A DNA stretch of 64,000 nt from the sequence record NZ_CP139428.1; one strand, written 5' to 3'. This document shows, piece by piece, positions 6,722 through 60,116 of this stretch; the stretch's first letter is position 1, and each line of letters begins with the position of its first letter. Under the pieces are notes generated by a model. That model was not told the DNA's origin and ran no database searches. It was given only the letters and a program-made list of their open reading frames with translations. Source of the DNA: a plasmid. The position numbers were made by a program, and so were the translations under genes.

Positions 6722-7120
6722 ATGGCAAGAATTCAAGCATATGTCAGCAAGGAGGCGGTTGAAAAGATTCATGCAATTGTTGAACAGCGCCGTCAAGAAG
6801 GGGCTGCTGAAACTGAAGTAAGTACATCTAGTGTTATTTCTATGCTTCTTGAACTCGGTCTCAGAGTCTATGAGGCACAGATGGAAAGAAAAGATGACCC
6901 TTTTAATCAGACGGAGTTTAACAAAACTCTTTTGGAAAACGTATTGAAAACTCAACTTGCAATGGCAAAGGTTCTTGGTGCAAGTACTCTAGCTCCACAT
7001 GTTGCAGATAAACCAAAACTTAATAACTATCAGCAGATCATTTCAGAAATAAACGAATCTGTTAATGATAAGTTAGAGAGATTTTTTATTGGTGTTGATT
7101 CAGATAGTACTAACGAATGA
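6722..7120 (+). CDS. traM: TraM relaxosome accessory protein
   Basis: MARIQAYVSKEAVEKIHAIVEQRRQEGA...MLLELGLRVYEAQMERK aligns closely with F TraM. Confidence 0.9.
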   Translation: MARIQAYVSKEAVEKIHAIVEQRRQEGAAETEVSTSSVISMLLELGLRVYEAQMERKDDPFNQTEFNKTLLENVLKTQLAMAKVLGASTLAPHVADKPKLNNYQQIISEINESVNDKLERFFIGVDSDSTNE

Positions 7121-42690: not shown

Positions 42691-43440
42691 TTCTGAACAA
42701 ACTAAGCCCTTTAAATAAAGGGAGTCACTCAGCGCACCGGCTTTCGCCGTTGCTGTTGAGTACCTCCCTCACTTTGTTCGGGCAAAAAACAGAGCCTTAC
42801 TCAGTTCCATGCCTCTCTTAACAAAAACCTGATGTAGCACCTGCAGTCACGACTGCAGGCAAAAGGACCTGCACCCACGCCGGAACCGCCGAAATTTCCC
42901 AACCAATGAAATTAGCCAACCTTAGCCCCACAAACCTCCTCACCACCGCTGAAAAGCGGCCCCGCCCCCCGGCCAAAGGCCGGGGAACTGTGTCGCTTTT
43001 AATGATGGATGTTGTAACTAGCATTTAAATCGCTGTCAGAAGTGTTGCTGAACGTTCTTCTTACACGCCCGTAAGCGGCCCTACGGCCCGCTAACGCGGA
43101 GATACGCCACAGCTGCGGCTACGCCTTGCTGTGACCACTCCGACGGCGCACACAACGATGCACAACGCGTTTAGCGGAACTGGTCTTGCAGGGCGAGGGA
43201 TGGGATAGGTGAAATCTATCAAAACAGGGCGGCTTCGCCGCGTCTCCGGCGACCCTGACCAAATGGTGTTCTCTTACCGCGCGGCTGTCGCCTCCATGCG
43301 CTGAAGCGCATACAGGGGCGATGTTGTGAGGACTATGGAACAACACGGGCTAATCGCTGTAACGGTATCGACTGGGTAAATTACTGGTTGTGCATACAGT
43401 TGTCTGCGCTGCCTATTTAATCGCAAAGAGGAGATACGTT

Positions 43441-44157
43441 ATGAGTGGAACCCCACATAACAACAAAGTAACCTATGACGGCTTCAACTGTAACGGCGGT
43501 AAGCCGCCCGAAGCCAATACCAGTTGGAGCCATGTAACCAATGCATGGGAATGGAACGACCTGAAATTAAATCCCGGCTCGATATCTGACTGGTTTCCTG
43601 AAGAAGTAAAAGAAGCACTCGAAAATAACATATGTATCATTTGTGGGGAAAAGAACTGTCCCTATATTAAAAATAACAGAGACTACCAAAATCTCATCAA
43701 TTCCCTGAAAAGTGGGAACGTGGAAGAAGCAAAAAAAGTTTATAGAACAAAGTTTGCACAACTTCGGAAAATACACAAAGCGGAAGTGATGAAAGGACTA
43801 CAAAAGGCCCGCGATGCAAGAAACAATGGTGTTTGTACCGTGCCTTATACCGGTCCAATTCAACATAAACGCGCCATCGCTACGCCTGGTGTATGGAGTG
43901 AGTGGATTGAGTTATTAAATTCCTTTGCTAACGAAACTTCCCCTAATGTTTATACCGTCAGTTTTAATCCTTCGTCGAATATGGAGTCTTCTTTTGATGT
44001 GGAGATAAAATATCCAGAAGCTAATGGAATGAAAACCATTAACACAATGGGGCCCGGTTCATATACAATCAAAGCTACAGGGATCGGAAATACATACATC
44101 AGGGTAAAATCACACTCAAGCCCTGTGACTGTTACCTTTGAATTCCCTGATAAATAA
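43441..44157 (+). CDS. hypothetical protein (AT-rich islet)
   Basis: Strong RBS AAAGAGGAG. ~38% GC against a 60% GC backbone. Confidence 0.55.
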   Translation: MSGTPHNNKVTYDGFNCNGGKPPEANTSWSHVTNAWEWNDLKLNPGSISDWFPEEVKEALENNICIICGEKNCPYIKNNRDYQNLINSLKSGNVEEAKKVYRTKFAQLRKIHKAEVMKGLQKARDARNNGVCTVPYTGPIQHKRAIATPGVWSEWIELLNSFANETSPNVYTVSFNPSSNMESSFDVEIKYPEANGMKTINTMGPGSYTIKATGIGNTYIRVKSHSSPVTVTFEFPDK

Positions 44158-44212
44158 CGCTTCAGTTGAGCGGAGCCACCTTAACTTGGTGGCTCAAGCA
44201 CTTGATAGGTAG

Positions 44213-44596
44213 TCATGGCTTATTATATGACGACAAAATATCATCAAGGATTTCTTTGTTTGGGATCATTTGCCTGTATCCATTCTCAGTCTTTAGGCTG
44301 CTGGCCACATGAGATTTCATAACTAAATTTGAATTGTAGTAAATGAATAAATCTCTGCCAACACTTTTAGAAATAAGCACATTGAGTTTATTTGCACATG
44401 CTATATCATTTTTTAATTTTATGGCTAATGCATAGTCATTTTCCGCGCTTTTTTTAATTGGTGATATTTCCTCGATACACTTTTTATCCAAGATAAATTG
44501 AAGATTATTGCTTTCATATACAAGTTTATTTTTTTTACTATCCACACACCCTACTGAAGTGACGCAAAGAGCAGTAATTAATATAAATTTAAGCAT
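44213..44596 (-). CDS. hypothetical lipoprotein
   Basis: Lipobox LCVTSVGC. Confidence 0.5.
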   Translation of the reverse strand: MLKFILITALCVTSVGCVDSKKNKLVYESNNLQFILDKKCIEEISPIKKSAENDYALAIKLKNDIACANKLNVLISKSVGRDLFIYYNSNLVMKSHVASSLKTENGYRQMIPNKEILDDILSSYNKP

Positions 44597-44897
44597 ATTT
44601 TCAATCCACGATGTCATGCTAATAATTATTTAGACCACCATCGATAACACTCAACCCATGTTTAGTCCAACTTTTGAGCGCATTGGTTGCAGTGGCCATT
44701 CCTTTCACACTGGAAACGGTAGTGTTTTTAAGTTGCCAACACAGCTCTTGTTTGCATCCGGCTTGTCCTTTTCAAAGTGATATGCCCCTATGATGGTAGC
44801 ATTACAGGGGGAGTATTCCAATGAAAGTGATAATCAATATCATTAACAGCTTTTCACGTTTTTCTCATTGAACTACGTGTTGCAGTGAAATCGCGCG

Positions 44898-46172
44898 TTA
44901 TTTCAGTTGCACGACAGGCACATCGTTCAGCCGCGTGGTCCAGGCCGGCGACAGGCGCTGCCGTTTCATCTTCCAGCCGTCGGCCCGATCGGGAATACCC
45001 TGCCCGGCAAACCACACCGGCGCCCGGCCGTCCTGATTGAGGCTGTCGAGCAGCTGCATCAGACGATCGCCGTTTTTGCGCGGCGGCGCGTCGTCAAACA
45101 GGCCGAACTGCGCCACGCGTTCGCTGGTGAAGTCGCCCAGCATCACGCCGCAGCGATGATAGCGGTGGCCGGCGATGAAGATCCGTTCGAGCGCCCGCCG
45201 GGCGGCCTGAATGATGTCACGGCTGTCCTGAGTGGGCGTCGCCAGTCGGGTGGTGGCCTGGTTGCCATAATAGGTCTCGCCGGCGGCGAACGGACTGGTG
45301 GCAACGAACACCGAGATGTGCCGGCAGAACTGCCGCTCGCCACGCAGCTTTTGTGCCGCGCGCTCGGCATGTGCGCAGACTGCCTGACTGACGCTGTCCA
45401 GCTCGGTGGGCTTGTCGCCGAACGAGCGGGAGCAGACGATTTGCTCCTTCGGCGCCGCAAATTCCTCCAGGCCCAGGCAGACGATGCCGTTCAGCTCGCG
45501 CACCGTGCGCTCGAGCACCACCGAGAACTGACGGCGCGCCGCGGCCGCCGGCATGTCGGCCAGCTGCAGCGCGGTGCTGATCCCCATCGTCGCCAGCCGG
45601 CGGGCAATCCGCCGGCCAACGCCCCACACTTCCTCTACCGGCACGTGCGCCATCAGGCGACGTTGACGCGCCGGCGCGCTCAGGTCGACCACACCGCCGG
45701 TCTTGTGCCAGGTCTTGGCGGCGTAGTTGGCCAGTTTGGCCAGCGTCTTGGTCGGCGCGATACCGACGCCGACCGTCAGGTGGGTTCGGCGCCGCACCTC
45801 TTCACGCAGCCGGCGACCGAGTGATTCCAGCTGCGCGGCCGGGATACCGGTCAGATCGCAGAAACATTCATCGATTGAATATACTTCCAGTCGCGGCGTC
45901 AGCTGGCCAAGGATGGCCATCACCCGATGCGACATGTCGGCGTAGTAGGCATAATTCGACGAAAACGCCACTACGCCCTGCCGCTCGGCGTCCCGGGCGA
46001 TTTTGAACCAGGGCTCCCCCATCTTGATGCCGCAGGCTTTCGCCTCGCGGCTGCGCGCGACGACGCAGCCGTCATTATTGGACAGCACCACCACCGGCCG
46101 GCCGCGCAGATCGGGGCGAAAGACGGTTTCGCAGGAGGCGTAGAAGCTGTTGACGTCAACCAGGGCAAACAT
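44898..46172 (-). CDS. umuC: UmuC / DNA polymerase V catalytic subunit (Y-family)
   Basis: [15 protein letters not shown]...[13 protein letters not shown], the canonical Y-family N-terminus. Confidence 0.9.
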
Positions 46173-46226
46173 GGCGGGGTTCTCCGGGCTTTGCGGAATG
46201 GGCAGATGGCGATAACCGGGGTCGGG

Positions 46227-46304
46227 TTACAGCGTGTGAATGGCGTGGCGCACCACGCCGAAGATCACGGTTTCGATGTCGTCGCCGAGCGGAATGGGCG
46301 CAAA
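46227..46304 (-). pseudogene. umuD: umuD C-terminal fragment (separated from N-part by transposon)
   Basis: Reverse-complement translation FAPIPLGDDIETVIFGVVRHAIHTL* matches the UmuD C-terminus. Abuts the IR. Confidence 0.75.
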
Positions 46305-46493
46305 GGGGGAACCGCAGAATTCGGAAAAAATCGTACGCTAAGCTAACGGTGTTCTCGTGACAGCTCTTTGACTAGGCTTTCTAAGGCCATTCTGATAGCC
46401 CTGACTTCCTGAAAAGCCATGGCTAAAATTTGTGCGGCTAAAAGGGATAACCGATGGTAAAGTAAGTTATCCCTGTCGAGATACTGAAAAGCG

Positions 46494-47539
46494 TTATCCT
46501 CGTTTTTCCCAAAACTGTTTTGCCAGTTCGCTCAGAGCGCTAGTTAACTGAGCGACAGATTTCGCACTTTGCAAATTATTCTGCCCGGTCTGTACATTGG
46601 TATCAGCAGCATCGCGTATATTGATAATACTGCGGTTTATGTCTTCACTTACTGCTCCCTGCTGCTCGACCGCAGTCGCTATTTGCGCGTTCATGTCGGT
46701 AATTTCGTTAACGCGTTGGCCAATTCCATCAAGAGCTGTAGCTGCTTCCTCTGCGTGAGCTACACTCGTGTGCGCTTGCCGACTACTTTGCTCCATGACT
46801 GTAACAGCGGATTGCGCTCGCTCTTGTAGAGCGCTGATCATGCTTTGAATATCCGTTGTCGATTGCTGTGTGCGAGCAGCAAGACTGCGAACCTCATCGG
46901 CGACAACAGCAAAACCACGCCCCTGCTCACCAGCACGCGCGGCCTCAATTGCTGCGTTGAGTGCCAACAAATTCGTTTGCTCGGCGATCCCTCGTATAAC
47001 GTCAAGAACTTTTGATATCTCGTTACTTTGACCTTCAAGCTCATGAATAACCTGAGTGGCTTGCCTAATTTCACCTTCAAGGGCAGTGATTGACTGGCTT
47101 GTGTGGGCTACCAGACGCTGGCCAGATGCCGTCTCAGTGTCTGCTCTTCCGGCCGCATCTGCAGCATGCTGTGCATTGCTCGCAACCTCTTGAATGCTTG
47201 CCACCATTTGGTTTACTGCCGTTGCTATTTGATCTGTCTCTGCCTGCTGCTCAACTGTAAGTACATTGCTTGACTCAATATCCTTTAGTAGGCCTCGGGT
47301 GTGTTCGCTAAGCCGATTTGATGCATCACCTATGCGACCTACTATGGCGCCTGTTTCAGCTTGCATCATTCGTAAAGCAAACTCTATTTGGCCAAACTCA
47401 TCGGTGCGCCCAGTGTAGAGGGATTGACTTAATGGGTTATTGGAAATATTCCTGGCTCTTTCAACCAGTCTTCCAAGAGGAGAGAGAATAGCCAAAACAC
47501 TAACAGAGCTTAAGCTTCCTGACATTAAAGTGGCTAACA
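46494..47539 (-). pseudogene. mcp: methyl-accepting chemotaxis protein (Tn1721 orfI-like mcp), C-terminal portion cut by ISEcp1
   Basis: MCP signalling domain. Reading frame ends at the ISEcp1 IRL. Confidence 0.7.
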
Positions 47540-49195
47540 CCTAGATTCTACGTCAGTACTTCAAAAAGCATAATCAAAGCCTTGATAAATATGCATTCCT
47601 TCGAAATTCAGCTTTCACCCATTGGGTGAAAGAAAAGTGCTCAAAAATATGTTAAATTATCAGCTTTTATGACTCGATATATGGTAAAATAATAGTAAGA
47701 AAAGTAGTAAAAAGGGGTTCTAATTATGATTAATAAAATTGATTTCAAAGCTAAGAATCTAACATCAAATGCAGGTCTTTTTCTGCTCCTTGAGAATGCA
47801 AAAAGCAATGGGATTTTTGATTTTATTGAAAATGACCTCGTATTTGATAATGACTCAACAAATAAAATCAAGATGAATCATATAAAGACCATGCTCTGCG
47901 GTCACTTCATTGGCATTGATAAGTTAGAACGTCTAAAGCTACTTCAAAATGATCCCCTCGTCAACGAGTTTGATATTTCCGTAAAAGAACCTGAAACAGT
48001 GTCACGGTTTCTAGGAAACTTCAACTTCAAGACAACCCAAATGTTTAGAGACATTAATTTTAAAGTCTTTAAAAAACTGCTCACTAAAAGTAAATTGACA
48101 TCCATTACGATTGATATTGATAGTAGTGTAATTAACGTAGAAGGTCATCAAGAAGGTGCGTCAAAAGGATATAATCCTAAGAAACTGGGAAACCGATGCT
48201 ACAATATCCAATTTGCATTTTGCGACGAATTAAAAGCATATGTTACCGGATTTGTAAGAAGTGGCAATACTTACACTGCAAACGGTGCTGCGGAAATGAT
48301 CAAAGAAATTGTTGCTAACATCAAATCAGACGATTTAGAAATTTTATTTCGAATGGATAGTGGCTACTTTGATGAAAAAATTATCGAAACGATAGAATCT
48401 CTTGGATGCAAATATTTAATTAAAGCCAAAAGTTATTCTACACTCACCTCACAAGCAACGAATTCATCAATTGTATTCGTTAAAGGAGAAGAAGGTAGAG
48501 AAACTACAGAACTGTATACAAAATTAGTTAAATGGGAAAAAGACAGAAGATTTGTCGTATCTCGCGTACTGAAACCAGAAAAAGAAAGAGCACAATTATC
48601 ACTTTTAGAAGGTTCCGAATACGACTACTTTTTCTTTGTAACAAATACTACCTTGCTTTCTGAAAAAGTAGTTATATACTATGAAAAGCGTGGTAATGCT
48701 GAAAACTATATCAAAGAAGCCAAATACGACATGGCGGTGGGTCATCTCTTGCTAAAGTCATTTTGGGCGAATGAAGCCGTGTTTCAAATGATGATGCTTT
48801 CATATAACCTATTTTTGTTGTTCAAGTTTGATTCCTTGGACTCTTCAGAATACAGACAGCAAATAAAGACCTTTCGTTTGAAGTATGTATTTCTTGCAGC
48901 AAAAATAATCAAAACCGCAAGATATGTAATCATGAAGTTGTCGGAAAACTATCCGTACAAGGGAGTGTATGAAAAATGTCTGGTATAATAAGAATATCAT
49001 CAATAAAATTGAGTGTTGCTCTGTGGATAACTTGCAGAGTTTATTAAGTATCATTGCAGCAAAGATGAAATCAATGATTTATCAAAAATGATTGAAAGGT
49101 GGTTGTAAATAATGTTACAATGTGTGAGAAGCAGTCTAAATTCTTCGTGAAATAGTGATTTTTGAAGCTAATAAAAAACACACGTGGAATTTAGG
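47540..49195 (+). mobile_element. ISEcp1 (IS1380 family)
   Basis: IRL CCTAGATTCTACGTCAGTACTTCAAAAAGC at 47540. IRR ...ACACACGTGGAATTTAGG ends 42 bp before the bla start codon. Confidence 0.85.
47726..48988 (+). CDS. tnpA: ISEcp1 transposase
   Basis: 420-aa IS1380-family transposase. AT-rich. Confidence 0.9.
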   Translation: MINKIDFKAKNLTSNAGLFLLLENAKSNGIFDFIENDLVFDNDSTNKIKMNHIKTMLCGHFIGIDKLERLKLLQNDPLVNEFDISVKEPETVSRFLGNFNFKTTQMFRDINFKVFKKLLTKSKLTSITIDIDSSVINVEGHQEGASKGYNPKKLGNRCYNIQFAFCDELKAYVTGFVRSGNTYTANGAAEMIKEIVANIKSDDLEILFRMDSGYFDEKIIETIESLGCKYLIKAKSYSTLTSQATNSSIVFVKGEEGRETTELYTKLVKWEKDRRFVVSRVLKPEKERAQLSLLEGSEYDYFFFVTNTTLLSEKVVIYYEKRGNAENYIKEAKYDMAVGHLLLKSFWANEAVFQMMMLSYNLFLLFKFDSLDSSEYRQQIKTFRLKYVFLAAKIIKTARYVIMKLSENYPYKGVYEKCLV

Positions 49196-49219
49196 GAATA
49201 CTGATGTAACACGGATTGA

Positions 49220-50113
<894 letters not shown>

Positions 50114-50115
50114 CT

Positions 50116-51172
50116 GGTTTTGTTGAATAAATCGAACTTTTGCTGAGTTGAAGGATCAGATCACGTATCTTCCCGACAACGCAGACCGTTCCGTGGCAAA
50201 GCAAAAGTTCAAAATCACCAACTGGCCCACCTACAATAAAGCCCTCATCAACCGTGGCTCCATAACTTTCTGGCTGGATGATGAAGCTATTCAGGCCTGG
50301 TATGAGTCAGCAACACCTTCTTCACGAGGCAGACCTCAGCGCTATTCTGACCTTGCCATCACGACTGTGCTGGTCATTAAACGCGTATTCAGGCTGACCC
50401 TGCGCGCTGCGCAGGGCTTTATTGATTCCATTTTTTCTCTGATGAACGTTCCGCTACGCTGCCCGGATTACAGCTGTGTCAGCAGGCGGGCAAAGTCGGT
50501 TAATATCAGTTTCAAAACGCCCACCCGGGGTGAAATCGCACACCTGGTAATTGATTCCACCGGGCTGAAGGTCTTCGGTGAAGGCGAGTGGAAAGTCAAA
50601 AAGCATGGCCAGGAACGCCGTCGTATATGGCGTAAGCTGCATCTGGCAGTTGACAGTAAAACACATGAAATCATCTGCGCTGACCTGTCGCTGAACAACG
50701 TTACGGACTCAGAGGCCTTCCCCGGGTTAATCCGGCAAACCCACCGGAAAATCAGGTCAGCCGCCGCCGATGGAGCTTACGATACCCGGCTCTGTCACGA
50801 TGAACTGCGGCGTAAGAAAATCAGCGCGCTTATCCCGCCCCGAAAAGGTGCGGGTTACTGGCCCGGTGAATATGCAGACCGTAACCGTGCAGTGGCTAAT
50901 CAGCGAATGACCGGGAGTAATGCGCGGTGGAAATGGACAACAGATTACAACCGTCGCTCGATAGCGGAAACGGCGATGTACCGGGTAAAACAGCTGTTCG
51001 GGGGTTCACTGACGCTGCGTGACTACGATGGTCAGGTTGCGGAGGCTATGGCCCTGGTACGAGCGCTGAACAAAATGACGAAAGCAGGTATGCCTGAAAG
51101 CGTGCGTATTGCCTGAAAACACAACCCGCTACGGGGGAGACTTACCCGAAATCTGATTTATTCAACAAAGCC
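50116..51172. mobile_element. IS903 (IS5 family), 1057 bp
   Basis: Terminal IRs GGTTTTGTTGAATAAATC / GATTTATTCAACAAAGCC. Confidence 0.85.
50148..51116 (+). CDS. tnpA: IS903 transposase
   Basis: 322-aa IS5-family DDE transposase. Confidence 0.9.
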   Translation: MKDQITYLPDNADRSVAKQKFKITNWPTYNKALINRGSITFWLDDEAIQAWYESATPSSRGRPQRYSDLAITTVLVIKRVFRLTLRAAQGFIDSIFSLMNVPLRCPDYSCVSRRAKSVNISFKTPTRGEIAHLVIDSTGLKVFGEGEWKVKKHGQERRRIWRKLHLAVDSKTHEIICADLSLNNVTDSEAFPGLIRQTHRKIRSAAADGAYDTRLCHDELRRKKISALIPPRKGAGYWPGEYADRNRAVANQRMTGSNARWKWTTDYNRRSIAETAMYRVKQLFGGSLTLRDYDGQVAEAMALVRALNKMTKAGMPESVRIA

Positions 51173-52270
51173 ACGCGCTGGACACACCACGATGACAGCG
51201 GTTTTATCCCTTACGCCATCACCACCGGCCTTGATTACGAGGCGATGACCGAACAGCGCAAAGGCTATGAGAACTTTGTTTATCAGAACGGCGTTTACGA
51301 TCTCGGCACCAAAGGTGATATGCGACGTAACGAACGTAACCTGATGTGGAACCTCGATCCCTACATTCAAACGCACTGGCAGCTCACCTCAGCCCTGGGG
51401 CTGGACGCCGGGGCGCGCTATAGCTCGGTATGGTTTGATTCCAACGATCGTTATGTTGTAGGTAAAAATGGTGATGATAGCGGCGAAGCGAGCTATCACA
51501 AGTGGCTTCCGGCGGCAGCGCTGAAGTATGCCATGACGCCGCAGTGGAACGTTTACCTCTCTGCCGGGAGGGGATTTGAAACGCCGACCATTAACGAGCT
51601 GTCCTATCGTCCCGATGGTCAGTCCGGGCTTAACTTTGCTCTGCAACCGGCCACTAACACCACCGTTGAAGCAGGCAGTAAATGGCAGGTGGGCACCGGG
51701 ATGGCGAGCCTGAGCGTCTTCAATACGGACACGAAAAATGAAATTGTCGTTGCCGCCAGCGACAATGGCCGTACGTCCTATCAGAACGCGGGCAAGACGC
51801 GCCGCCGCGGGGTCGAACTGGGATGGGATCAGCAATTTGCGCCCGCCTGGCGCGCCAAACTGGCGTGGACGCTGCTGGATGCGACCTACCGTGAAAACGC
51901 CGGCGATGCTATTCAGAGCGGCAATCGGATCCCGGGGATTGCACGTAATAGCGCCTATGCCTCCTTTGGCTGGGTGCCGGAAGAGGGATGGTACGCTGGC
52001 GCTGAAGTCCGCTATATGAGCGATATTCAGGTCAACGATGCCAATAGCGAGCAGGCTCCAGCCTATACGGTGACGGCACTGAATACCGGCTATAAATATG
52101 TGCTAGATAACTGGACCGTCGACCTCTATACGCGCGTTGATAACCTGTTTGATAAGCGCTACGTCGGCTCTGTTATCGTCAACGAGAGCAACGGACGCTA
52201 TTATGAACCGGCGCCGGGCCGTAACTATGGCGTTGGGCTATCGGTCAGCTATCAGTTTGATTCGCTGTAA
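51173..52270 (+). pseudogene. iroN: truncated TonB-dependent siderophore receptor (iroN-like 3' fragment)
   Basis: C-terminal beta-barrel ending ...SYQFDSL. No N-terminal plug or signal. Usual partner of ISEcp1-blaCTX-M-14-IS903. Confidence 0.7.
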
Positions 52271-52289
52271 CAATACGGCTGCCGGAGAG

Positions 52290-52874
52290 TGCTATTGAGG
52301 TGAGGCTCCGGCAGCGGGTAAAGGCGTTGATTCCTGGTAACAATAAGCTGCTTATTGATGTATCAGTAAGCATGCCGGCAGCCATTGCGCTTGATATAAT
52401 ACTACCCCATATGAGCAAGAGTATTTTCACGGAAAAGCTAGCAGCCAATTTCGGCCTCGCGGCCTTCCCGCTTCTCAATTGAGCATATAATTTTTCCGCA
52501 GCCAAAACCTGCTCAGGTTCAGGCTTGGTCCTTACAGACTGGTATTCAACAATCGAACCATTCTTAGCTATTGGCGTTACATAAGCACTTACCCAATAGT
52601 GGTCGCCATTTTTACAGCGATTTTTTACTAGCCCCATCCATGAGCGGCCAGATTTTAATGTACTCCACATATGCTCAAATGCAGCAGGCGGCATATCTGG
52701 GTGTCTTACGATGTTGTGAGGCTGGCCTAATAGTTCTTCCTCAGTGAAACCACTGATTTTAATGAAGTCAGGATTAACGTACGTGATATGGCTTTGAGGG
52801 GAGGTAGTCGAAAGAATATTGGCATCTTTTGGGAGTTCTAAGTTTCGACCCGTCACTGGTAAATTCTGGCGCAT
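52290..52874 (-). pseudogene. mcp: mcp N-terminal PAS-domain portion (Aer-like), 3' end lost to the ISEcp1 unit
   Basis: HITYVNPDFIKISGFTEEELLGQPHNIVRHPDMP is an Aer-type PAS domain. The 3' boundary is approximate. Confidence 0.65.
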
Positions 52875-52899
52875 AAGAACCTCAAGGGTTGGCTGTTTT

Positions 52900-53183
52900 A
52901 TTTTATTGTTTTCGGCATTAAGCCCAATTTCTTGAGCGTTACGATAAAGCTAGCATGGAAACGATAGGTGCAAGCAAGTTAAGGGTTGCATCGCGCATGT
53001 CAATCTAGGCTATACCCTAACTTGATGTCAGGCAGGGCCGCGCCGCTTCGTCAGAATAGAGTCTGCTTTCCCATTTTTTGACACATGCCCGCGAAGGTTA
53101 TAGATTTCAGCCTGACAGAAATGGGCTTTGAGGCACAACGGAACAGAAAGTGCACTTAAGCCGCCTTCAACCAAGGAGACATC
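52900..53183. promoter_or_regulatory. probable res site / divergent promoters between mcp and tnpR
   Basis: Position by analogy to Tn21/Tn1721. Subsites not mapped. Confidence 0.4.
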
Positions 53184-53744
53184 GTGCAGGGGCACCGCAT
53201 CGGCTACGTCCGGGTCAGCAGCTTTGACCAGAACCCGGAACGCCAGCTGGAACAAACCCAGGTGAGCAAGGTGTTCACCGACAAGGCATCGGGCAAGGAC
53301 ACCCAGCGCCCCCAGCTCGAAGCGCTGCTGAGCTTCGTCCGCGAAGGCGATACAGTGGTGGTGCACAGCATGGATCGGCTGGCCCGCAACCTCGATGACC
53401 TGCGTCGCTTGGTACAGAAGCTGACTCAGCGCGGCGTGCGCATCGAGTTCCTGAAGGAGGGCCTGGTGTTCACTGGCGAGGACTCGCCGATGGCCAACCT
53501 GATGCTGTCGGTGATGGGGGCCTTCGCTGAGTTCGAGCGCGCCCTGATCCGCGAGCGGCAGCGTGAGGGCATCGCCTTGGCCAAGCAGCGTGGCGCGTAC
53601 CGGGGCCGCAAGAAAGCCCTGTCCGATGAGCAGGCTGCTACCCTGCGGCAGCGAGCGACGGCCGGCGAGCCCAAGGCGCAGCTTGCCCGCGAGTTCAACA
53701 TCAGCCGGGAAACCCTCTACCAGTACCTCCGCACGGACGACTGA
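53184..53744 (+). CDS. tnpR: Tn3-family serine resolvase TnpR
   Basis: GYVRVSSFDQNPERQ catalytic Ser. C-terminal HTH. Confidence 0.9.
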   Translation: MQGHRIGYVRVSSFDQNPERQLEQTQVSKVFTDKASGKDTQRPQLEALLSFVREGDTVVVHSMDRLARNLDDLRRLVQKLTQRGVRIEFLKEGLVFTGEDSPMANLMLSVMGAFAEFERALIRERQREGIALAKQRGAYRGRKKALSDEQAATLRQRATAGEPKAQLAREFNISRETLYQYLRTDD

Positions 53745-53747
53745 CAC

Positions 53748-56714
53748 ATGCCGCGTCGCTTGATCCTCTCGGCCACGGAGCGGGACACCCTGCTTGCGCT
53801 GCCGGAAAGCCAGGATGACCTGATCCGCTACTACACCTTCAACGACTCCGACCTGTCGCTGATCCGCCAGCGACGCGGCGACGCCAACCGCCTCGGCTTC
53901 GCCGTGCAGCTCTGCCTGCTGCGCTACCCCGGTTACGCGCTGGGAACCGACAGCGAGCTGCCCGAGCCGGTCATCCTGTGGGTGGCGAAGCAAGTCCAGG
54001 CCGAGCCGGCGAGCTGGGCAAAGTACGGCGAGCGCGACGTGACCCGTCGCGAGCATGCCCAGGAACTGCGCACCTACCTGCAACTGGCCCCGTTCGGCCT
54101 GTCCGACTTCCGCGCCCTGGTGCGCGAGCTAACCGAGCTGGCCCAGCAGACCGACAAAGGCTTGCTGCTGGCCGGTCAGGCCCTGGAGAGCCTACGGCAG
54201 AAACGACGCATCCTGCCGGCGCTGAGCGTGATTGACCGGGCCTGCTCGGAAGCCATTGCGCGAGCCAATCGGCGGGTCTACCGCGCCCTGGTCGAACCAC
54301 TCACGGACTCGCATCGGGCCAAGCTGGACGAGCTGTTGAAGCTCAAGGCCGGCAGCAGCATCACCTGGTTGACCTGGCTGCGCCAGGCACCGCTGAAACC
54401 CAACTCTCGGCACATGCTGGAACACATCGAGCGGCTGAAGACATTTCAGTTGGTGGACTTGCCCGAAGGCCTGGGCCGGCACATCCACCAGAACCGCCTG
54501 CTCAAGCTGGCCCGCGAGGGTGGGCAGATGACGCCCAAAGACCTCGGTAAGTTCGAGCCGCAGCGCCGCTACGCGACCCTGGCCGCCGTGGTGCTGGAGA
54601 GCACCGCGACCGTGATCGATGAGCTGGTCGATCTGCATGACCGCATCCTGGTCAAGCTGTTCAGCGGCGCGAAGCACAAGCATCAGCAGCAGTTCCAGAA
54701 GCAGGGCAAGGCGATCAACGACAAGGTGCGCCTGTACTCCAGGATCGGCCAGGCGCTGCTGGAAGCGAAGGAAAGCGGCAGCGACCCCTATGCCGCCATC
54801 GAGGCGGTGATTCCCTGGGACGAGTTCACCGAGAGCGTCAGCGAGGCCGAGCTGCTGGCCCGGCCGGAAGGCTTCGACCACCTGCACCTGGTCGGCGAGA
54901 ACTTCGCCACCCTGCGCCGTTACACGCCGGCCTTGCTGGAGGTGCTGGAACTGCGCGCCGCGCCGGCCGCGCAAGGCGTGCTGGCAGCCGTGCAGACCCT
55001 GCGTGAGATGAACGCCGACAACCTGCGCAAGGTGCCGGCCGATGCACCCACGGCCTTCATCAAGCCGCGCTGGAAGCCGCTGGTGATCACCCCGGAAGGC
55101 CTCGACCGGAAATTCTACGAAATCTGCGCCCTGTCCGAGCTGAAGAACGCCCTGCGCTCCGGCGACATCTGGGTCAAGGGCTCGCGGCAGTTCCGCGACT
55201 TCGACGACTACCTGCTGCCGGCCGAGAAGTTCGCCGCACTCAAGCGCGAGCAGGCCCTGCCCCTGGCGATCAACCCGAACAGCGACCAGTACCTGGAAGA
55301 GCGTTTGCAGCTGCTGGACGAGCAGTTGGCCACCGTCACCCGCCTGGCCAAGGACAACGAGCTGCCCGATGCCATCCTCACCGAGTCAGGGCTGAAAATC
55401 ACCCCGCTGGATGCGGCGGTGCCGGATCGGGCGCAGGCGCTGATCGACCAAACCAGCCAGTTACTGCCGCGCATCAAGATCACCGAACTGCTGATGGACG
55501 TGGACGACTGGACGGGCTTCAGCCGCCACTTCACCCACTTGAAGGACGGGGCCGAGGCCAAAGACAGGACGTTGCTGCTGTCCGCAATCCTCGGTGATGC
55601 GATCAACCTCGGGCTGACCAAGATGGCCGAGTCGAGCCCCGGCCTGACCTACGCCAAGCTGTCCTGGCTGCAAGCCTGGCACATCCGCGACGAAACCTAT
55701 TCGGCGGCCTTGGCCGAGCTGGTCAACCACCAGTATCGCCACGCCTTTGCCGCCCACTGGGGCGACGGCACGACCTCATCCTCCGATGGCCAGCGCTTCC
55801 GCGCGGGTGGCCGGGGCGAGAGCACCGGGCACGTCAACCCGAAGTACGGTAGCGAGCCGGGACGGCTGTTCTATACCCATATCTCCGACCAGTACGCGCC
55901 GTTCAGCACCCGCGTGGTGAATGTCGGCGTCCGCGATTCCACCTATGTGCTCGACGGCCTGCTGTACCACGAGTCCGACCTGCGGATCGAGGAGCACTAC
56001 ACCGACACGGCCGGCTTCACCGATCACGTCTTTGCCCTGATGCACCTGCTAGGCTTCCGCTTCGCGCCGCGCATCCGCGACCTCGGCGAAACCAAGCTGT
56101 ACGTGCCGCAGGGCGTGCAAGCCTACCCGACGTTGCGCCCGCTGATCGGCGGCACCCTGAACATCAAGCACGTGCGTGCCCACTGGGACGACATCCTGCG
56201 CCTGGCCAGCTCGATCAAGCAGGGCACCGTCACCGCCTCGCTGATGCTGCGCAAGCTCGGCAGCTACCCGCGCCAGAACGGACTGGCCGTGGCCCTGCGC
56301 GAGCTGGGCCGGATCGAGCGCACGCTGTTCATCCTGGACTGGCTGCAAAGTGTTGAACTGCGCCGCCGCGTGCATGCCGGCCTGAACAAAGGTGAGGCGC
56401 GCAACTCGCTGGCCAGGGCGGTGTTCTTCAACCGCCTTGGGGAAATCAGGGATCGGAGCTTCGAGCAGCAGCGCTACCGGGCCAGCGGCCTCAACCTGGT
56501 GACGGCGGCTATCGTGCTGTGGAACACGGTGTACCTGGAACGCGCCACCCAGGGGTTGGTCGAGGCCGGCAAGCCGGTGGACGGCGAGCTGCTGCAATTC
56601 CTGTCGCCGCTGGGCTGGGAGCACATCAACCTAACCGGCGATTACGTCTGGCGGCAGAGCCGCAGACTGGAAGACGGGAAGTTTCGGCCCTTACGGATGC
56701 CCGGAAAACCTTAG
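53748..56714 (+). CDS. tnpA: Tn3-family transposase TnpA
   Basis: 988 aa. Ends in the IRR. Confidence 0.9.
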
Positions 56715-56747
56715 CGTACGATTTTTTCCGAATTCTGCGGGCTCCCC

Positions 56748-57058
56748 GCAAAGGCCGGATTGGCCGGCATCAGCATCGGCCGGGGCAGCAGCTGCAGGCG
56801 CTTGCAGGTGAACTCGCCGTCGACGGTGGCGATGACGATGTCGCCGTGCTGCGCCCGGTAGAAACACTCCACGACCAGCAGGTCGCCGTCGAGGATACCT
56901 GCGTCCTGCATCGATTGCCCCTCGGCGCGCACCAGGTAGGTGCTTTCCGGGTGGCGGATGCAGATGTCGTCCAACGACAGGCGCTGCTCGAGGTAGTCCT
57001 GCGCCGGCGACGGAAACCCGCAGGGCACGCCGGCGTCATAGAAGCGTACCGGCATCAC
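56748..57058 (-). pseudogene. umuD: umuD N-terminal part (S24 peptidase region), fused in frame into transposon IR
   Basis: CGFPSPAQDYLEQ...AEGQSMQDAGILDGDLLVV...TCKRLQL = UmuD Ser/Lys dyad region. The frame runs into the IR (..[11 protein letters not shown]). Confidence 0.8.
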
Positions 57059-58164
57059 ACGGCCTCCGGCGCGCTCTGCCAGGCATCGTCATCCGGGGGC
57101 GTGTCCGCGTCGGCTGAAGCCGCGGCCGGCAGCGCCGCCTGCAGGTAGTGCGTGCGCAGCTGCGCGGTCAATGTGGCCACCACGTCGGGACGGTCACGCA
57201 GCCAGCCGGCGGCCTTCTCGCGCCCCTGGCCGATTTTCTCCCCCTGATACTCGTACCAGGCGCCGGTCTTGAGGATATATTTGGCGTCGACGGCCAGATC
57301 CAGCACTTCGCCCTCGAGAAAGATGCCGGCGCCGAACAGCAGCCGGAACTGCGCCTGGCGGAACGGCGGCGAGACCTTGTTCTTGACCACTTTCACCTTG
57401 GTATCCCGCCCGATGATGGTCTCCCCTTCCTTGACGTTGCCGGCGCCGCGCACGTCGAGACGCACCGAAGCGTAGAACTTGAGGGCGTTGCCGCCGGCGG
57501 TGGTTTCGGGGTTGCCGAACATCACGCCGATCTTCATGCGCAGCTGGTTGATGAAGATCACCACCGTGCGGGTGGTGTTGATGCTGCCCTTCAGCTTTCG
57601 CATCGCCTGGCTCATCATGCGGGCCTGCAGCCCCATCTGGGCGTCGCCGATCTCCCCTTCCAGCTCGTTTTTCGGCACCAGGGCGGCGACGGAATCAACC
57701 ACCACCACGCCGACGGCGCCGGAACGCACCAGGGCGTCACAGATTTCCAGCGCCTGCTCGCCGGTGTCGGGCTGGGAGATGAGGAGTTCACCGATATCGA
57801 CGCCCAGCTGCTGCGCGTAACGCGGATCGAGCGCGTGCTCGGCATCGATAAAGGCGCACTGCAGTCCGGCGCGCTGGGCGCAGGCAATGACCGACAGGGC
57901 GACGGTGGTCTTGCCGGACGACTCGGGGCCGTAGATTTCGGTGATGCGGCCGACCGGCAGGCCGCCGCCGAGTGCGATGTCGAGGCCGAGCGAGCCGGTC
58001 GGGATACGTTCGACAGCCATGCCATGGTTGTCGCCCAGGCGCATGATGGCGCCCTTGCCGAACGCCTTTTCGATGGCGGTGATGGCGCTTTGCAGGGCTT
58101 TAGCGCGACTTTCCTGTGTGCCGGCCGAGTCCTGCGGGGTGCGGGGGCGTGATACGTTGCTCAT
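57055..58164 (-). CDS. recA: RecA recombinase (plasmid-borne, high-GC orthologue)
   Basis: [26 protein letters not shown], complete L1/L2 regions. ~65% identity to E. coli RecA. Stop overlaps the umuD start. Confidence 0.9.
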
Positions 58165-58209
58165 CTTGTGTTCTCCTCTGGTCGTAAACCGAATGCGTTA
58201 TTATAATTA

Positions 58210-58229
58210 TACTGTATGCATAACCAGTA
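58210..58229. promoter_or_regulatory. LexA (SOS) box TACTGTATGCATAACCAGTA upstream of recA-umuDC
   Basis: Matches the TACTGT-N8-ACAGTA consensus at 17/20 positions. 46 bp upstream of the recA ATG. Confidence 0.6.
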
Positions 58230-58529
58230 TAATATAAATCTGAGGGGGAATGACAAGCGATAGGGCGCGACTTTCAGCTCTTAGAGGAACAACTCGCTCA
58301 TTTTGCAGTGGATTTTTTTCTGTCTCTCAACTGTTGCTATTTCGCACGATTTCAGAGGGGCTGATCGCTATCTGCCATGTAGCTCCGGGAGACACAAGAT
58401 GTTGTGTCTAATTCAGCTGAATGAGGTACTAAATGCTGTGTTTCCAGGCGTGATTGTCACTTGCTACTGGCGTCATTGTTTGCCAAACTGCATTAAAGTA
58501 ATATGACAAAATGACACATTTTAGGGGCG

Positions 58530-58766
58530 GTGATGACGGGATTTGAGCTGAAACTATGGCGAACGGGACTGGGATGGACACAGGAACGGGCGTCAAAGGA
58601 GTTTGGGATTTCGATGCGTACCTACATCCGCTATGAGCATGCTGATCCACCGAGGGCGATTGAGTTGGCCATTCAGGCGCTGTCTTTGGCGGCGCTGTTA
58701 CCGGAGATTGATGCTCTTCCTGCAGAAACGTTACGACAACGCGTCAGGATGCTGGTAATTAAATGA
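58530..58766 (+). CDS. small XRE-type HTH protein
   Basis: LGWTQERASKEFGISMRTYIRYE. Confidence 0.5.
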   Translation: MMTGFELKLWRTGLGWTQERASKEFGISMRTYIRYEHADPPRAIELAIQALSLAALLPEIDALPAETLRQRVRMLVIK

Positions 58767-59080: not shown

Positions 59081-60025
59081 TCAGTGGTGAATGTGCGCCA
59101 GGTCGTCGGCCGTCAGCCCGGTCATTTTCATTACCGACTCGCGATCGAGCCCGCTGGCCAGCATGGCGCGGGCGATTTTCAGCGCCGCATCGCGCTCGCC
59201 TTCCTGGCGCCCTTTTTCTTCGCCAAGTTGCAGCCCCTCGATTCGTCCTTCCTGACGTCCTTTCTGGCGCCCTTCTTCTCTCAACTTTTCTGCAATCGTC
59301 ATCAGCGTGTCCTCGTGTTCCGGCACCCGTGATGCCAGGGTTGATAGTAATTCGCCCGGGTTGCGGGTTTCACCAACCTGCAGCATGTAATGCATCAGTG
59401 ATGTCAGCTGCTCCTGAGTAGTGTAACCGGCCAGCAGCAACGTGACCAGCTGTTCCAGCAAATCGGCCAGGTCACGCTGGCGAACGTGTTTTTGCAGCAG
59501 CTCCAGAATGGCGACGCGGCGATGCTGCATGATTTGATCGTCCGGAATGACCGTGACGTCAACGAGTGGAAAATCGCCCCCGTACAACTGGCCGGCCAGC
59601 GCCGGATCACTGAAGCCCTGCAACCAGTTCATCGGATACGGGTAGGGGGTTACCTGACCATGATAGAACAGGACGGGGATCACCAGCGGCAGCTGTTCAT
59701 TGCCGGCAGCCAGATGTCGTTGCATGGCGGCAATGGCATACCGCATCAACCGAAACGCCATGTTTTTGTCCGGCGTCGATTGGTGCTCGATGAGGGCGTA
59801 AATATAGCCGTCGCCTTGCCCGGCCTTCAGCGAATAAAGCACGTCTGAGTAGTACGCACGCAGGTCGTCCTCGACGAATGAGCCGGATTCCAGACGCAGG
59901 GTGCTCAGGTCGCACGCCTGGCGCAACGCCGGCGGCAGGTGTGCGTCCAGAAAGTCGCGGGCGGTTTCCGGATGCGTCAAAAACTGTTTGAACAGCGCGT
60001 CGTGCGCGGTGGGTGTCGTTTTCAT
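59081..60025 (-). CDS. Rpn/YhgA-like recombination-promoting nuclease (PDDEXK_7 transposase_31 family)
   Basis: N-terminal DALFKQFL...YSDVLY, then the ERD/EGR repeat C-terminus typical of Rpn proteins. Confidence 0.7.
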   Translation of the reverse strand: MKTTPTAHDALFKQFLTHPETARDFLDAHLPPALRQACDLSTLRLESGSFVEDDLRAYYSDVLYSLKAGQGDGYIYALIEHQSTPDKNMAFRLMRYAIAAMQRHLAAGNEQLPLVIPVLFYHGQVTPYPYPMNWLQGFSDPALAGQLYGGDFPLVDVTVIPDDQIMQHRRVAILELLQKHVRQRDLADLLEQLVTLLLAGYTTQEQLTSLMHYMLQVGETRNPGELLSTLASRVPEHEDTLMTIAEKLREEGRQKGRQEGRIEGLQLGEEKGRQEGERDAALKIARAMLASGLDRESVMKMTGLTADDLAHIHH

Positions 60026-60116
60026 CGTGGTATCGTAGCATGATCCCTCATTTCGCCCTACTCTCGGTGAAGCGGCTGATATCCTCACCGTTCCTGAACC
60101 GGCGCCGGCCCAGCGA

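What the first reader, a model, noticed from the sequence alone, without database searches (positions are those of the whole stretch)
44898..58229. SOS-box-controlled recA-umuD-umuC operon on a plasmid (self-contained Pol V mutasome), inactivated by transposon insertion in umuD
- A full-length RecA (369 aa, all ATPase and L1/L2 motifs) is encoded immediately upstream of umuD. The recA stop overlaps the umuD start.
- umuD and umuC lie in the same orientation, so the operon reads recA-umuD-umuC.
- It is preceded by a near-consensus LexA box (TACTGTATGCATAACCAGTA).
- Plasmid mucAB/umuDC/rumAB operons are known. A dedicated co-transcribed RecA is unusual and would give the co-protease and Pol V Mut cofactor in cis.
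- The recA gene is ~65% GC and looks foreign to an enterobacterial backbone.
- The operon is broken: the Tn1721-like element splits umuD after PANPAF, so UmuD' cannot form.
Basis: partly seen in the sequence, partly recalled or inferred. Interest (0 to 1): 0.7.

Follow-up and report, generated by a model that had tools for sequence, protein, structure and literature searches.

The report
Plasmid recA-umuDC SOS operon, transposon-broken
A Serratia-type conjugative plasmid carries its own damage-inducible RecA gene in one operon with an error-prone DNA polymerase (UmuD/UmuC); here a resistance transposon has split umuD, and the RecA belongs to a little-studied family of RecA copies carried by plasmids, prophages and integrative elements.

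Summary
On the minus strand lie a promoter and LexA box (58256-58210), an intact recA (58164-57055, 369 aa), umuD split after codon 102/103, and an intact umuC (46172-44898). The splitting element is a 10,443-bp Tn1721/Tn1722-type transposon carrying ISEcp1-blaCTX-M-14-IS903B (46305-56747), with 38-bp inverted repeats and a 5-bp TTTGC duplication.

Empty-site plasmids (pSM22, LY1) show this is a simple insertion. The intact recA-umuD-umuC module occurs in 55 PLSDB records, about two dozen distinct Serratia plasmids. All three genes are under strong purifying selection (dN/dS 0.04-0.13).

The RecA is not a captured chromosomal gene. It is about 62% identical to housekeeping RecAs and falls in a 100%-bootstrap clade of RecAs from mobile elements of Enterobacterales. 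Every sampled member lies in a LexA-box-headed unit:
- Plasmid members sit next to umuDC, in two gene orders.
- Prophage members sit next to dinI or a LexA-like gene.

The most likely function is a LexA-repressed, self-sufficient Pol V module. That is inferred, not shown. I found no paper describing it. I rate it a new variant of a known kind, of moderate interest.

The parts
58229..58256 (-). Sigma-70-type promoter: -35 TTGTCA (58256-58251), 16-nt spacer, -10 TATTAT (58234-58229). A second TATAAT overlaps the 3' end of the LexA box.
   Evidence: 10/12 match; the only promoter-like site in 57900-58700. The same site occurs in pSM22 and is conserved in the alignment.
58210..58229 (.). LexA (SOS) box. 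Plus strand TACTGTATGCATAACCAGTA; minus strand TACTGGTTATGCATACAGTA.
   Evidence: 16/20 to consensus, best in the window; a box at -44 to -70 upstream of the 13 sampled mobile-element recA genes in which recA is the first gene; in Pantoea/Erwinia the box is upstream of umuD.
57055..58164 (-). recA, intact, 369 aa. It belongs to the mobile-element RecA clade: N-terminal extension of about 13 aa, deletion of E. coli A53, T76A, I225V.
   Evidence: TIGR02012 510 bits; clade bootstrap 100%; core dN/dS 0.02-0.04.
56748..57055 (-). umuD 5' fragment: codons 1-102 plus 2 nt. The ATG at 57055-57053 overlaps the recA stop. It contains the Cys12-Gly13 cleavage site, Ser48 and Lys85. The reading frame continues into the transposon repeat (...[18 protein letters not shown]).
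56748..56752 (.). Target-site duplication copy (TTTGC on the minus strand).
46305..56747 (.). Tn1721/Tn1722-type (TnAs1-family) transposon, 10,443 bp. Inverted repeats at 56710-56747 and 46305-46342; tnpR 53184-53744 (+); tnpA 53748-56714 (+). The mcp gene is split (52874-52245 and 47540-46494, minus strand) by ISEcp1 (47726-48988), blaCTX-M-14 (49238-50113), IS903B (50148-51116) and a TonB-receptor fragment (51245-52270).
   Evidence: (100% identical over 10.4 kb to Klebsiella, E. coli, Raoultella and Proteus plasmids, annotated TnAs1/ISEcp1/CTX-M-14/IS903B).
46300..46304 (.). Second target-site duplication copy (TTTGC on the minus strand).
46227..46299 (-). umuD 3' fragment: last 24 codons plus stop (...PIPLGDDIETVIFGVVRHAIHTL*).
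   Evidence: The reconstructed 126-aa UmuD has no internal stop and scores 145.9 bits on NF007621, cut-off 110.
44898..46172 (-). umuC, intact ORF, 424 aa. It is now 10.4 kb away from the only recognisable promoter.
   Evidence: NF002955 667 bits; no internal minus-strand promoter or terminator in the intact pSM22 operon.

Best explanation
The locus is a three-gene, LexA-repressed operon, recA-umuD-umuC. It is an old, conserved accessory module of pSM22-like F-type conjugative plasmids of Serratia.

**Proposed mechanism in the intact state**
1. DNA damage leads to LexA cleavage and de-represses the single promoter.
2. The plasmid RecA is made together with UmuD and UmuC. recA and umuD are translationally coupled.
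3. RecA filaments stimulate UmuD self-cleavage at Cys12-Gly13.
4. A RecA-ATP subunit completes the active polymerase (UmuD'2C-RecA-ATP). The plasmid therefore brings a matched activator for its own error-prone polymerase into any host.

**State in this window.** A Tn1722-like transposon carrying ISEcp1-blaCTX-M-14 inserted after umuD codon 102/103. This removes the last 23 residues of UmuD and cuts umuC off from the promoter. The polymerase part is dead, while recA and its operator remain intact.

**Shown:** gene content, order, overlap, operator and promoter sequence, insertion anatomy, conservation, purifying selection, and clade membership.

**Inferred:** LexA binding, co-transcription, and above all the dedicated RecA-Pol V partnership.
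For: **Anatomy:**

**Family scores above curated cut-offs:** RecA 510 vs 325, UmuD 146 vs 110, UmuC 667 vs 431.

**Catalytic and coprotease determinants retained:**
- RecA: Walker A, E96, L1, L2, G22, K23, G108, S117, M197, G204, G229.
- UmuD: the Cys-Gly site, Ser48 and Lys85, aligned to E. coli C24-G25, S60 and K97.

**Conservation:**
- The intact module is in 55 PLSDB records at 90-100% identity.
- dN/dS is 0.04-0.13 for all three genes and 0.02-0.04 for the RecA core.

**Single transcription unit:** the intact pSM22 operon has one LexA box, one promoter, and no internal minus-strand promoter or terminator.

**Linkage recurs in diverged lineages (identities):**
- A second Serratia lineage has recA(381-385 aa)-umuD(130)-umuC(423), with RecA 70% and UmuC 76% identical to the window's.
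- Pantoea and Erwinia plasmids have the other order, umuD-umuC-recA.
- All 6 sampled plasmid lineages have recA next to umuDC; in one of them umuD is cut down to a 35-aa remnant.

**Operator footprint:** conserved while upstream flanks diverge.

**Published biochemistry:**
- Pol V needs a RecA subunit contacted through RecA residues 112-117 (PMC4374754).
- A. baumannii Pol V variants needed co-expressed RecA in a recA-deleted E. coli (PMC13062779).
Against: - There are no experimental data on this module. I found no paper describing it.
- Members of the same RecA clade occur without umuDC in lambdoid prophages (next to dinI or a LexA-like gene) and in a Salmonella integrative conjugative element. 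The RecA cannot have evolved only to serve Pol V.
- From established knowledge: plasmid and ICE polymerases such as MucAB and RumAB work with the host's RecA. A private RecA is therefore not obviously needed.
- The RecA 112-117 surface is not used by RumA'2B (PMC4374754). The D112G/N113E changes seen here cannot be read as co-adaptation.
- The clade-wide I225V is a loss-of-function allele (recA142) in the E. coli background (bioRxiv 10.1101/2022.09.30.510415). Its meaning here is unknown.
Confidence: 0.6

Rival explanations
1. The RecA is a general-purpose mobile-element gene. It would boost or time the SOS response, recombinational repair or element induction for whichever element carries it. 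It sits with umuDC on plasmids only because both are LexA-controlled cargo that can share one operator. There would be no specific RecA-Pol V partnership.
For: - The clade is spread over plasmids, prophages and an ICE, always within a LexA-box-headed unit.
- Prophage copies pair with DinI or a LexA-like protein rather than a polymerase.
- Plasmid-borne recA of other lineages is fairly common without umuDC: 336 PLSDB records, 124 of them Pseudomonas.
Against: - In all 6 plasmid lineages sampled, the RecA is immediately adjacent to umuDC (in one, umuD is cut down to a 35-aa remnant). This holds in two different gene orders, with stop/start overlap in the Serratia forms.
- In pSM22, umuDC has no promoter or LexA box of its own.
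- In every context the neighbour is a client or modulator of the RecA filament, which argues for functional pairing rather than random co-location.
Confidence: 0.3
2. The RecA paralogue is a regulator or decoy rather than a working recombinase. For example, it could resist or titrate the plasmid's own PsiB or host RecX/DinI, or poison host filaments, so tuning SOS during or after conjugation.
For: - The same plasmid carries psiA at window 5-541, and by operon logic psiB lies just outside the window.
- The clade has consistent surface changes and an N-terminal basic extension.
- The pSM22 lineage has R227G and R243K. From memory, these residues lie in the secondary DNA-binding site.
Against: - All ATPase, DNA-binding-loop and coprotease residues are intact, and the core is under very strong purifying selection. 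That pattern is typical of a working enzyme.
- The gene is LexA-repressed and lies on the strand opposite to the leading-region genes. Early expression from incoming single-stranded DNA is therefore unlikely.
Confidence: 0.08
3. The locus is a chance capture of a chromosomal recA fragment next to a plasmid umuDC, with no selected function.
For: The GC content of the module (0.66) differs from the flanking accessory DNA (0.39-0.47).
Against: - No chromosomal RecA exceeds about 66% identity.
- The clade is monophyletic at 100% bootstrap and has shared indels.
- The module is conserved in dozens of plasmids and in diverged lineages.
- dN/dS is well below 1.
- No chromosomal flanking genes are present.
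Confidence: 0.02

Closest known systems
E. coli SOS mutagenesis system: chromosomal recA plus umuDC, Pol V Mut = UmuD'2C-RecA-ATP
   Same: It has the same three proteins by family, the same LexA-box type of control, the same UmuD Cys-Gly cleavage site and Ser/Lys dyad, and the same RecA residues known to matter for coprotease and Pol V activation (S117, M197, G204).
   Different: - In E. coli, recA and umuDC are separate LexA-controlled loci. Here they form one operon with a single operator and recA first.
- The RecA is only 62.5% identical to E. coli RecA. It carries an N-terminal extension, lacks A53, and has D112G/N113E on the Pol V activation surface.
- UmuD has a 12-residue rather than 24-residue N-terminal arm.
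Plasmid and ICE Pol V operons: mucAB (pKM101), impCAB (TP110), samAB, rumAB (R391), rulAB
   Same: These are mobile-element-borne, LexA-regulated umuDC homologues. They often mark the boundary of the plasmid leading region (PMC11541004). From memory, impCAB is also a three-gene operon whose first gene (impC) is a small DinI-like modulator of RecA.
   Different: To my knowledge none of these includes a recA; they rely on host RecA. Here the first gene is a complete RecA.
imuA-imuB-dnaE2 mutagenesis cassette
   Same: It is a LexA-regulated translesion cassette that carries its own RecA-fold protein (ImuA) alongside a polymerase.
   Different: ImuA is a truncated, divergent RecA-like protein. The present protein is a full RecA (ImuA model 39 bits vs cut-off 150; RecA model 510 bits). 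The polymerase here is a Y-family UmuC, not DnaE2/ImuB.
Plasmid-encoded extra RecA of Deinococcus deserti, and recA genes of Pseudomonas megaplasmids
   Same: These are natural plasmids carrying a full recA in addition to the chromosomal one (PMC2669436).
   Different: They are different RecA lineages (56-64% identity). In one search the annotated features under the Pseudomonas megaplasmid matches are recA alone or recA plus a hypothetical protein; adjacency to umuDC beyond the match was not examined.
Prophage recA-dinI pairs of Citrobacter and Enterobacter, and recA-LexA-like pairs of Raoultella (same RecA clade)
   Same: They belong to the same monophyletic RecA clade, have the same LexA box 44-70 nt upstream, and share the same indels and substitutions.
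   Different: The partner gene is DinI or a LexA-like DNA-binding protein, not UmuDC. The carrier is a lambdoid prophage.

Membership tests
RecA recombinase (TIGR02012 / PF00154) | Full-length match above the curated cut-off | tested here: met
   510 bits vs cut-off 325.3, model positions 2-320 of 321. E = 4e-142 to E. coli RecA structures.
RecA recombinase (TIGR02012 / PF00154) | Walker A GPESSGKT, catalytic E96, DNA-binding loops L1 and L2 | tested here: met
   All are present. L2 is identical to E. coli except I195L and T210A. L1 has S162A and H163Q.
RecA recombinase (TIGR02012 / PF00154) | ATP-dependent filament formation, strand exchange and coprotease activity | not testable with these tools
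   Needs purified protein or complementation of a recA deletion.
UmuD (Pol V autoproteolytic subunit, NF007621) | Family match above cut-off, Cys/Ala-Gly cleavage site, Ser/Lys dyad | tested here: met
   Applies to the reconstructed 126-aa protein: 145.9 bits vs 110. C12-G13, S48 and K85 align to E. coli C24-G25, S60 and K97.
UmuD (Pol V autoproteolytic subunit, NF007621) | Uninterrupted coding sequence in this window | tested here: not met
   Split after codon 102/103 by the transposon at 46305-56747.
UmuC (Pol V catalytic subunit, NF002955) | Full-length match above cut-off | tested here: met
   667.4 bits vs 431, positions 1-422 of 422.
LexA (SOS) regulon of Gammaproteobacteria | CTGT-N8-ACAG-type 20-bp operator overlapping the promoter | tested here: met
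   16/20 match with a perfect CTG-N10-CAG core, one half-site CCAG. It is contiguous with the -10 element and conserved across lineages.
LexA (SOS) regulon of Gammaproteobacteria | LexA binding and damage-inducible transcription | not testable with these tools
   Needs EMSA, ChIP or expression data.
ImuA (RecA-like component of the imuA-imuB-dnaE2 cassette) | Match to NF033429 above cut-off | tested here: not met
   39.1 bits vs cut-off 150.
Tn3-family transposon of the Tn1721/Tn1722 (TnAs1) group | 38-bp terminal inverted repeats, tnpA and tnpR, 5-bp target duplication | tested here: met
   Repeats at 46305-46342 and 56710-56747, TTTGC duplication, 988-aa TnpA and 186-aa resolvase. Identical elements are annotated as TnAs1 family. 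The empty site is seen in pSM22 and LY1.
Mobile-element RecA clade of Enterobacterales (defined here) | Monophyly against housekeeping RecAs plus shared indels (N-terminal extension, loss of A53) and T76A/I225V | tested here: met
   - 200/200 NJ bootstraps on core positions 6-328.
- The indels are shared by all clade members displayed, except that the N-terminus of one (Salmonella Java, 352 aa) is not covered.
- T76A in 27/27 and I225V in 26/27 members.

The most novel reading that the evidence does not exclude
The mobile-element RecA clade is a specialised, 'private' SOS activator. It would be a RecA tuned for coprotease and mutasome-subunit functions rather than recombination.

Leads from the sequence:
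- Clade-wide I225V.
- In the pSM22 lineage, R227G and R243K in what I recall as the secondary DNA-binding site.
- An added basic N-terminal tail.

Such a RecA may be insensitive to the plasmid's own PsiB or to host RecX/DinI. It would serve the carrier element's own RecA-filament clients: UmuD/Pol V on plasmids, and DinI or LexA-like repressors on prophages. If so, plasmids could switch on error-prone synthesis independently of, or orthogonally to, the host's RecA regulation.
Probability: 0.2. Interest if true: 0.8.

Novelty: new variant of a known kind. Interest (0 to 1): 0.55.

Why it matters
**Open question it addresses.** Plasmid umuDC homologues are abundant at the edge of leading regions, and their role on plasmids is still called unclear (PMC11541004).

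**What this variant offers.**
- A polymerase hard-wired to its own RecA is a natural experiment on how specific the RecA-Pol V partnership is.
- It also bears on whether mobile elements can bring a host-independent mutagenesis switch into new bacteria, which is relevant to stress-induced evolution of resistance.
- The wider finding gives a defined, testable protein family for a question usually studied only with E. coli RecA mutants. Enterobacterial plasmids, prophages and an ICE share one distinct SOS-controlled RecA lineage, always paired with a RecA-filament client.

**This particular window.** The practical message is ordinary. The polymerase module has been knocked out by a blaCTX-M-14 transposon, and only recA is left functional.

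Tried and rejected
1. **Genome scan for close chromosomal relatives.** Universal RecA motifs saturated the hit list. It still showed that nothing above about 66% identity exists among the best 80, but it could not enumerate clade members. I used protein search plus contig look-ups instead.
2. **Literature searches.** I looked for any description of a plasmid recA-umuDC operon or an enterobacterial mobile-element RecA and found none. One search was swamped by 'recall' matches. Only open-access papers are searchable, so absence is not proof.
3. **Co-adaptation of RecA 112-117 with UmuC.** Positions 112-113 vary in all sub-lineages, with or without umuDC. With four linked lineages there is no statistical power, so I dropped this argument.
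4. **A. baumannii paper as proof that Pol V needs a cognate RecA.** On reading it, the host was recA-deleted. It shows RecA dependence, not species specificity, and I cite it only for that.
5. **The 1.58-kb insert next to umuC as a colicin/immunity pair like that in pET_H2.** No similarity was found and there are no Pfam hits.
6. **The 77-aa ORF after the Raoultella-type prophage recA as DinI.** It is unrelated in sequence.
7. **The exact transposon/umuD junction in PLSDB.** No record covers it. The source plasmid is therefore not in that collection, and the insertion looks specific to it.
8. **Not attempted.** Structure prediction and fold search were not used, because sequence evidence for all three families is unambiguous.


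Full report
**1. What is in the window**

The minus strand of 44898-58256 reads as follows.
- A sigma-70-type promoter: TTGTCA, 16 nt, TATTAT, at 58256-58229.
- A 20-bp LexA box at 58229-58210. The minus strand reads TACTGGTTATGCATACAGTA. It is the best SOS-box match in the 64 kb at 16/20, and only four sites reach 12/20.
- recA, 58164-57055, 369 aa.
- umuD, whose ATG (57055-57053) overlaps the recA stop codon by one base.
- After umuD codon 102/103 (...PANPAF), a 38-bp Tn1721-type inverted repeat.
- The last 24 umuD codons resume at 46299-46227, followed after 54 nt by umuC, 46172-44898, 424 aa.

The inserted element is 46305-56747 (10,443 bp), flanked by a direct TTTGC repeat. It is a Tn1722-like backbone of tnpA, tnpR and an mcp gene. 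The mcp gene is itself split by ISEcp1-blaCTX-M-14-IS903B and a TonB-receptor fragment. The element is 100% identical to copies on Klebsiella, E. coli, Raoultella and Proteus plasmids.

pSM22 (NC_015972) and the S. marcescens LY1 plasmid carry the uninterrupted target site, so this was a simple transposition. No PLSDB record contains this junction.

**2. Identity of the three genes**

| Protein | Model | Score (bits) | Cut-off |
|---|---|---|---|
| RecA | TIGR02012 | 510 | 325 |
| UmuD (reconstructed, 126 aa) | NF007621 | 146 | 110 |
| UmuC | NF002955 | 667 | 431 |
| RecA against ImuA | NF033429 | 39 | 150 |

- RecA keeps Walker A, E96, L1 and L2. It also keeps residues tied to coprotease and Pol V functions: G22, K23, G108, S117, M197, G204 and G229 (roles from PMC3164682, PMC4374754 and PMC13062779).
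- UmuD keeps the Cys-Gly cleavage site (C12-G13), Ser48 and Lys85, aligned to E. coli C24-G25, S60 and K97. Its N-terminal arm is only 12 residues.
- The insertion removes the equivalent of E. coli UmuD residues 116-139 and adds 11 transposon-encoded residues.

**3. A conserved plasmid module, not a capture**

- The backbone is a pSM22-like F-type conjugative plasmid. It carries traG, traD, traI and traX upstream, and an Rpn-family gene downstream of the module.
- The intact 2.9-kb recA-umuD-umuC unit is found in 55 PLSDB records at 90-100% identity. About two dozen are distinct plasmids of S. marcescens, S. ureilytica and Serratia sp. SCBI. Partial copies occur in S. liquefaciens, S. proteamaculans and Raoultella ornithinolytica plasmids. 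PGAP annotates the genes as recA, umuD and umuC.
- Pairwise dN/dS among four variants is 0.06-0.12 for recA (0.02-0.04 for the core), 0.04-0.12 for umuD and 0.04-0.13 for umuC.
- In pSM22 there is one LexA box, one minus-strand promoter, and no internal minus-strand promoter or terminator. This fits a single transcription unit. It also means that in this window umuC has lost its only recognisable promoter.
- An alignment of upstream regions from six plasmids shows the operator and the -10 region conserved while the sequence further upstream diverges.

**4. The RecA belongs to a distinct mobile-element clade**

- It is 62.5% identical to E. coli RecA and 62.3% to a Serratia housekeeping RecA.
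- The best chromosomal matches among one genome per species are 56-66%.
- A search of 5.8 billion proteins found a set of 352-385-aa RecAs at 64-78% identity from Serratia, Pantoea, Erwinia, Raoultella, Klebsiella, Enterobacter, Citrobacter and Salmonella.
- In a neighbour-joining analysis of core positions 6-328, these 27 sequences form a clade separate from 17 housekeeping RecAs in 200 of 200 bootstraps.
- The members displayed share a 13-16-residue, mostly basic N-terminal extension (the N-terminus of one, Salmonella Java, is not covered) and loss of A53.
- Clade-wide substitutions are L75V, T76A (27/27), I225V (26/27), K183N/S, N186K/R and K302R.
- The pSM22 lineage additionally has D112G, N113E, R227G and R243K.

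**5. Genomic contexts of the clade**

Twelve lineages were sampled besides the window's own pSM22-type lineage.

| Carrier | Arrangement | Where |
|---|---|---|
| Plasmid | recA-umuD-umuC | pSM22 type; a second Serratia type with RecA 70% and UmuC 76% identical to the window's. One copy (L089) retains only a 35-aa umuD remnant |
| Plasmid | umuD-umuC-recA | Pantoea and Erwinia, next to ArdA, YubE and a methyltransferase of the leading region |
| Lambdoid prophage | recA-dinI | Citrobacter koseri, Enterobacter asburiae and two metagenomic contigs |
| Lambdoid prophage | recA, unrelated 77-aa ORF, LexA-like DNA-binding protein | Raoultella type |
| ICE | recA alone | One Salmonella integrative conjugative element |

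- Every copy in which recA is the first gene has a LexA box of at least 14/20 (15/20 or better in all but one) at -44 to -70. In Pantoea and Erwinia the box precedes umuD.
- The background frequency of boxes scoring at least 15/20 in all fetched loci is 0.06 per kb.
- On every sampled plasmid or prophage the neighbour is a client or modulator of the RecA filament.

**6. How it most likely works**

- *Shown:* the items in sections 1-5.
- *From established knowledge:* LexA represses promoters overlapped by such boxes. RecA filaments trigger UmuD self-cleavage. Active Pol V is UmuD'2C-RecA-ATP, with RecA residues 112-117 at the interface in E. coli (PMC4374754).
- *Inference:* damage de-represses one promoter and delivers RecA, UmuD and UmuC together. 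The plasmid thus carries a matched activator and subunit for its own polymerase.

In this window only RecA, plus a truncated UmuD fusion, can still be made from that promoter.

The main rival is that the RecA is a general SOS or recombination asset of mobile elements and merely shares an operator with umuDC. The prophage and ICE members support that view. The invariable adjacency on plasmids, in two gene orders, and the lack of an independent umuDC promoter argue for real coupling.

A decoy or regulator role is less likely, given intact catalytic residues and strong purifying selection. Chance capture is excluded.

**7. Other context**

- The window starts inside psiA (5-541), followed by leading-region genes and traM. 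The plasmid therefore also carries the psiB/psiA anti-SOS module.
- recA-umuDC lies on the opposite strand to these genes. It is probably not expressed from the incoming single strand (inference).
- Module GC is 0.66 against 0.58-0.60 for the tra region and 0.39-0.47 for adjacent accessory DNA. This is a modest difference, not strong evidence of foreign origin.

**8. Comparison with what is known, and novelty**

- Plasmid and ICE umuDC homologues (mucAB, impCAB, samAB, rumAB, rulAB) are classical. To my knowledge none includes recA.
- The imuA-imuB-dnaE2 cassette carries a RecA-like protein, but not a true RecA.
- Extra plasmid recA genes exist: Deinococcus deserti (PMC2669436) and Pseudomonas megaplasmids (336 PLSDB records with a RecA hit overall). 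They belong to other lineages, and I did not examine their gene neighbourhoods.
- A recent survey notes umuDC at the boundary of leading-region anti-defence islands and calls its plasmid role unclear, without mentioning recA.
- I found no paper describing this operon or the clade.
- The genes are already annotated in GenBank, so the sequence is not new. The arrangement and the clade appear uncharacterised.

**Verdict:** a real feature, a new variant of a known kind, of moderate interest (0.55). The copy in this window is a transposon-inactivated example.

Noticed in passing
window 43382-43401 and 43441-44157 (+); insert 43312-44891: A second LexA-like box (TACTGGTTGTGCATACAGTT, 14/20) closely resembles the recA operator. 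It lies 40 nt upstream of an unknown 238-aa ORF with no Pfam hit. The ORF sits in a 1.58-kb low-GC (0.39) insert that is absent from pSM22. A convergent lipoprotein-like ORF lies at 44213-44617 (-). This may be another SOS-controlled cargo gene. It is not similar to the 'colicin' at the same position in pET_H2.
   Followed up: partly
window 5-541 (+), 2354-3154, 4319-5146, 5832-6302, 6656-7120: The window opens inside psiA, followed by an N6 methyltransferase, DUF932, an SLT transglycosylase and traM. This is the plasmid leading region and oriT side. The same plasmid therefore carries the anti-SOS psi module (psiB itself would lie just outside the window) together with an SOS-inducible recA.
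   Followed up: partly
window 46305-56747: A Tn1722-like transposon has its mcp gene split by ISEcp1-blaCTX-M-14-IS903B and a TonB-receptor fragment. The 10.4-kb element is 100% identical to copies on Klebsiella, E. coli, Raoultella, K. grimontii and Proteus plasmids, so it is a widely travelling ESBL unit.
   Followed up: partly
L083, L100, L101, L102 (prophage loci); L087, L095: Lambdoid prophages of Citrobacter, Enterobacter, Raoultella and related hosts carry a RecA of the same clade in their early or nin region behind a LexA box. It is followed either by DinI, or by an unrelated conserved 77-aa ORF plus a protein with a LexA DNA-binding domain.
   Followed up: partly
L085/L086 (Salmonella enterica contigs): A RecA of the same clade (376 aa) with a LexA box lies in an integrative conjugative element, next to a DoxD-like gene, a UvrD-type helicase, a TraI_2 relaxase and an integrase. 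No umuDC is nearby.
   Followed up: no
L089 (AP028481.1 2825-13970) and AP028481.1 79668-82561: One 133.7-kb S. marcescens plasmid carries two mobile-element recA genes. One is a 381-aa type followed by only a 35-aa remnant where umuD should be, with a Tn7-like or resolvase-bearing insertion downstream. The other is a complete pSM22-type recA-umuDC.
   Followed up: no
RecA alignment, E. coli positions 53, 75, 76, 183, 186, 225, 302 (window recA 57055-58164): Clade-wide signatures include I225V (26/27 members). In E. coli that change is the recA142 loss-of-function allele. The pSM22 lineage also changes R227 and R243. The meaning is unknown.
   Followed up: partly
window 59081-60145 (-); L093, L099: An Rpn/YhgA-like (Transposase_31) gene, and in other plasmids a DUF2913 gene, lie immediately upstream of recA in conserved synteny (Rpn-DUF2913-recA-umuD-umuC). 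DUF2913 is missing in this window, replaced by 0.9 kb of low-GC sequence with a small HTH ORF (58530-58766).
   Followed up: no
phage record MZ516527.1 (Hafnia phage yong2) 20136-21164: An isolated temperate phage encodes a RecA that matches the plasmid RecA from residue 1, including the N-terminal extension, at 63% identity. At least one cultured phage may therefore carry a clade member.
   Followed up: no
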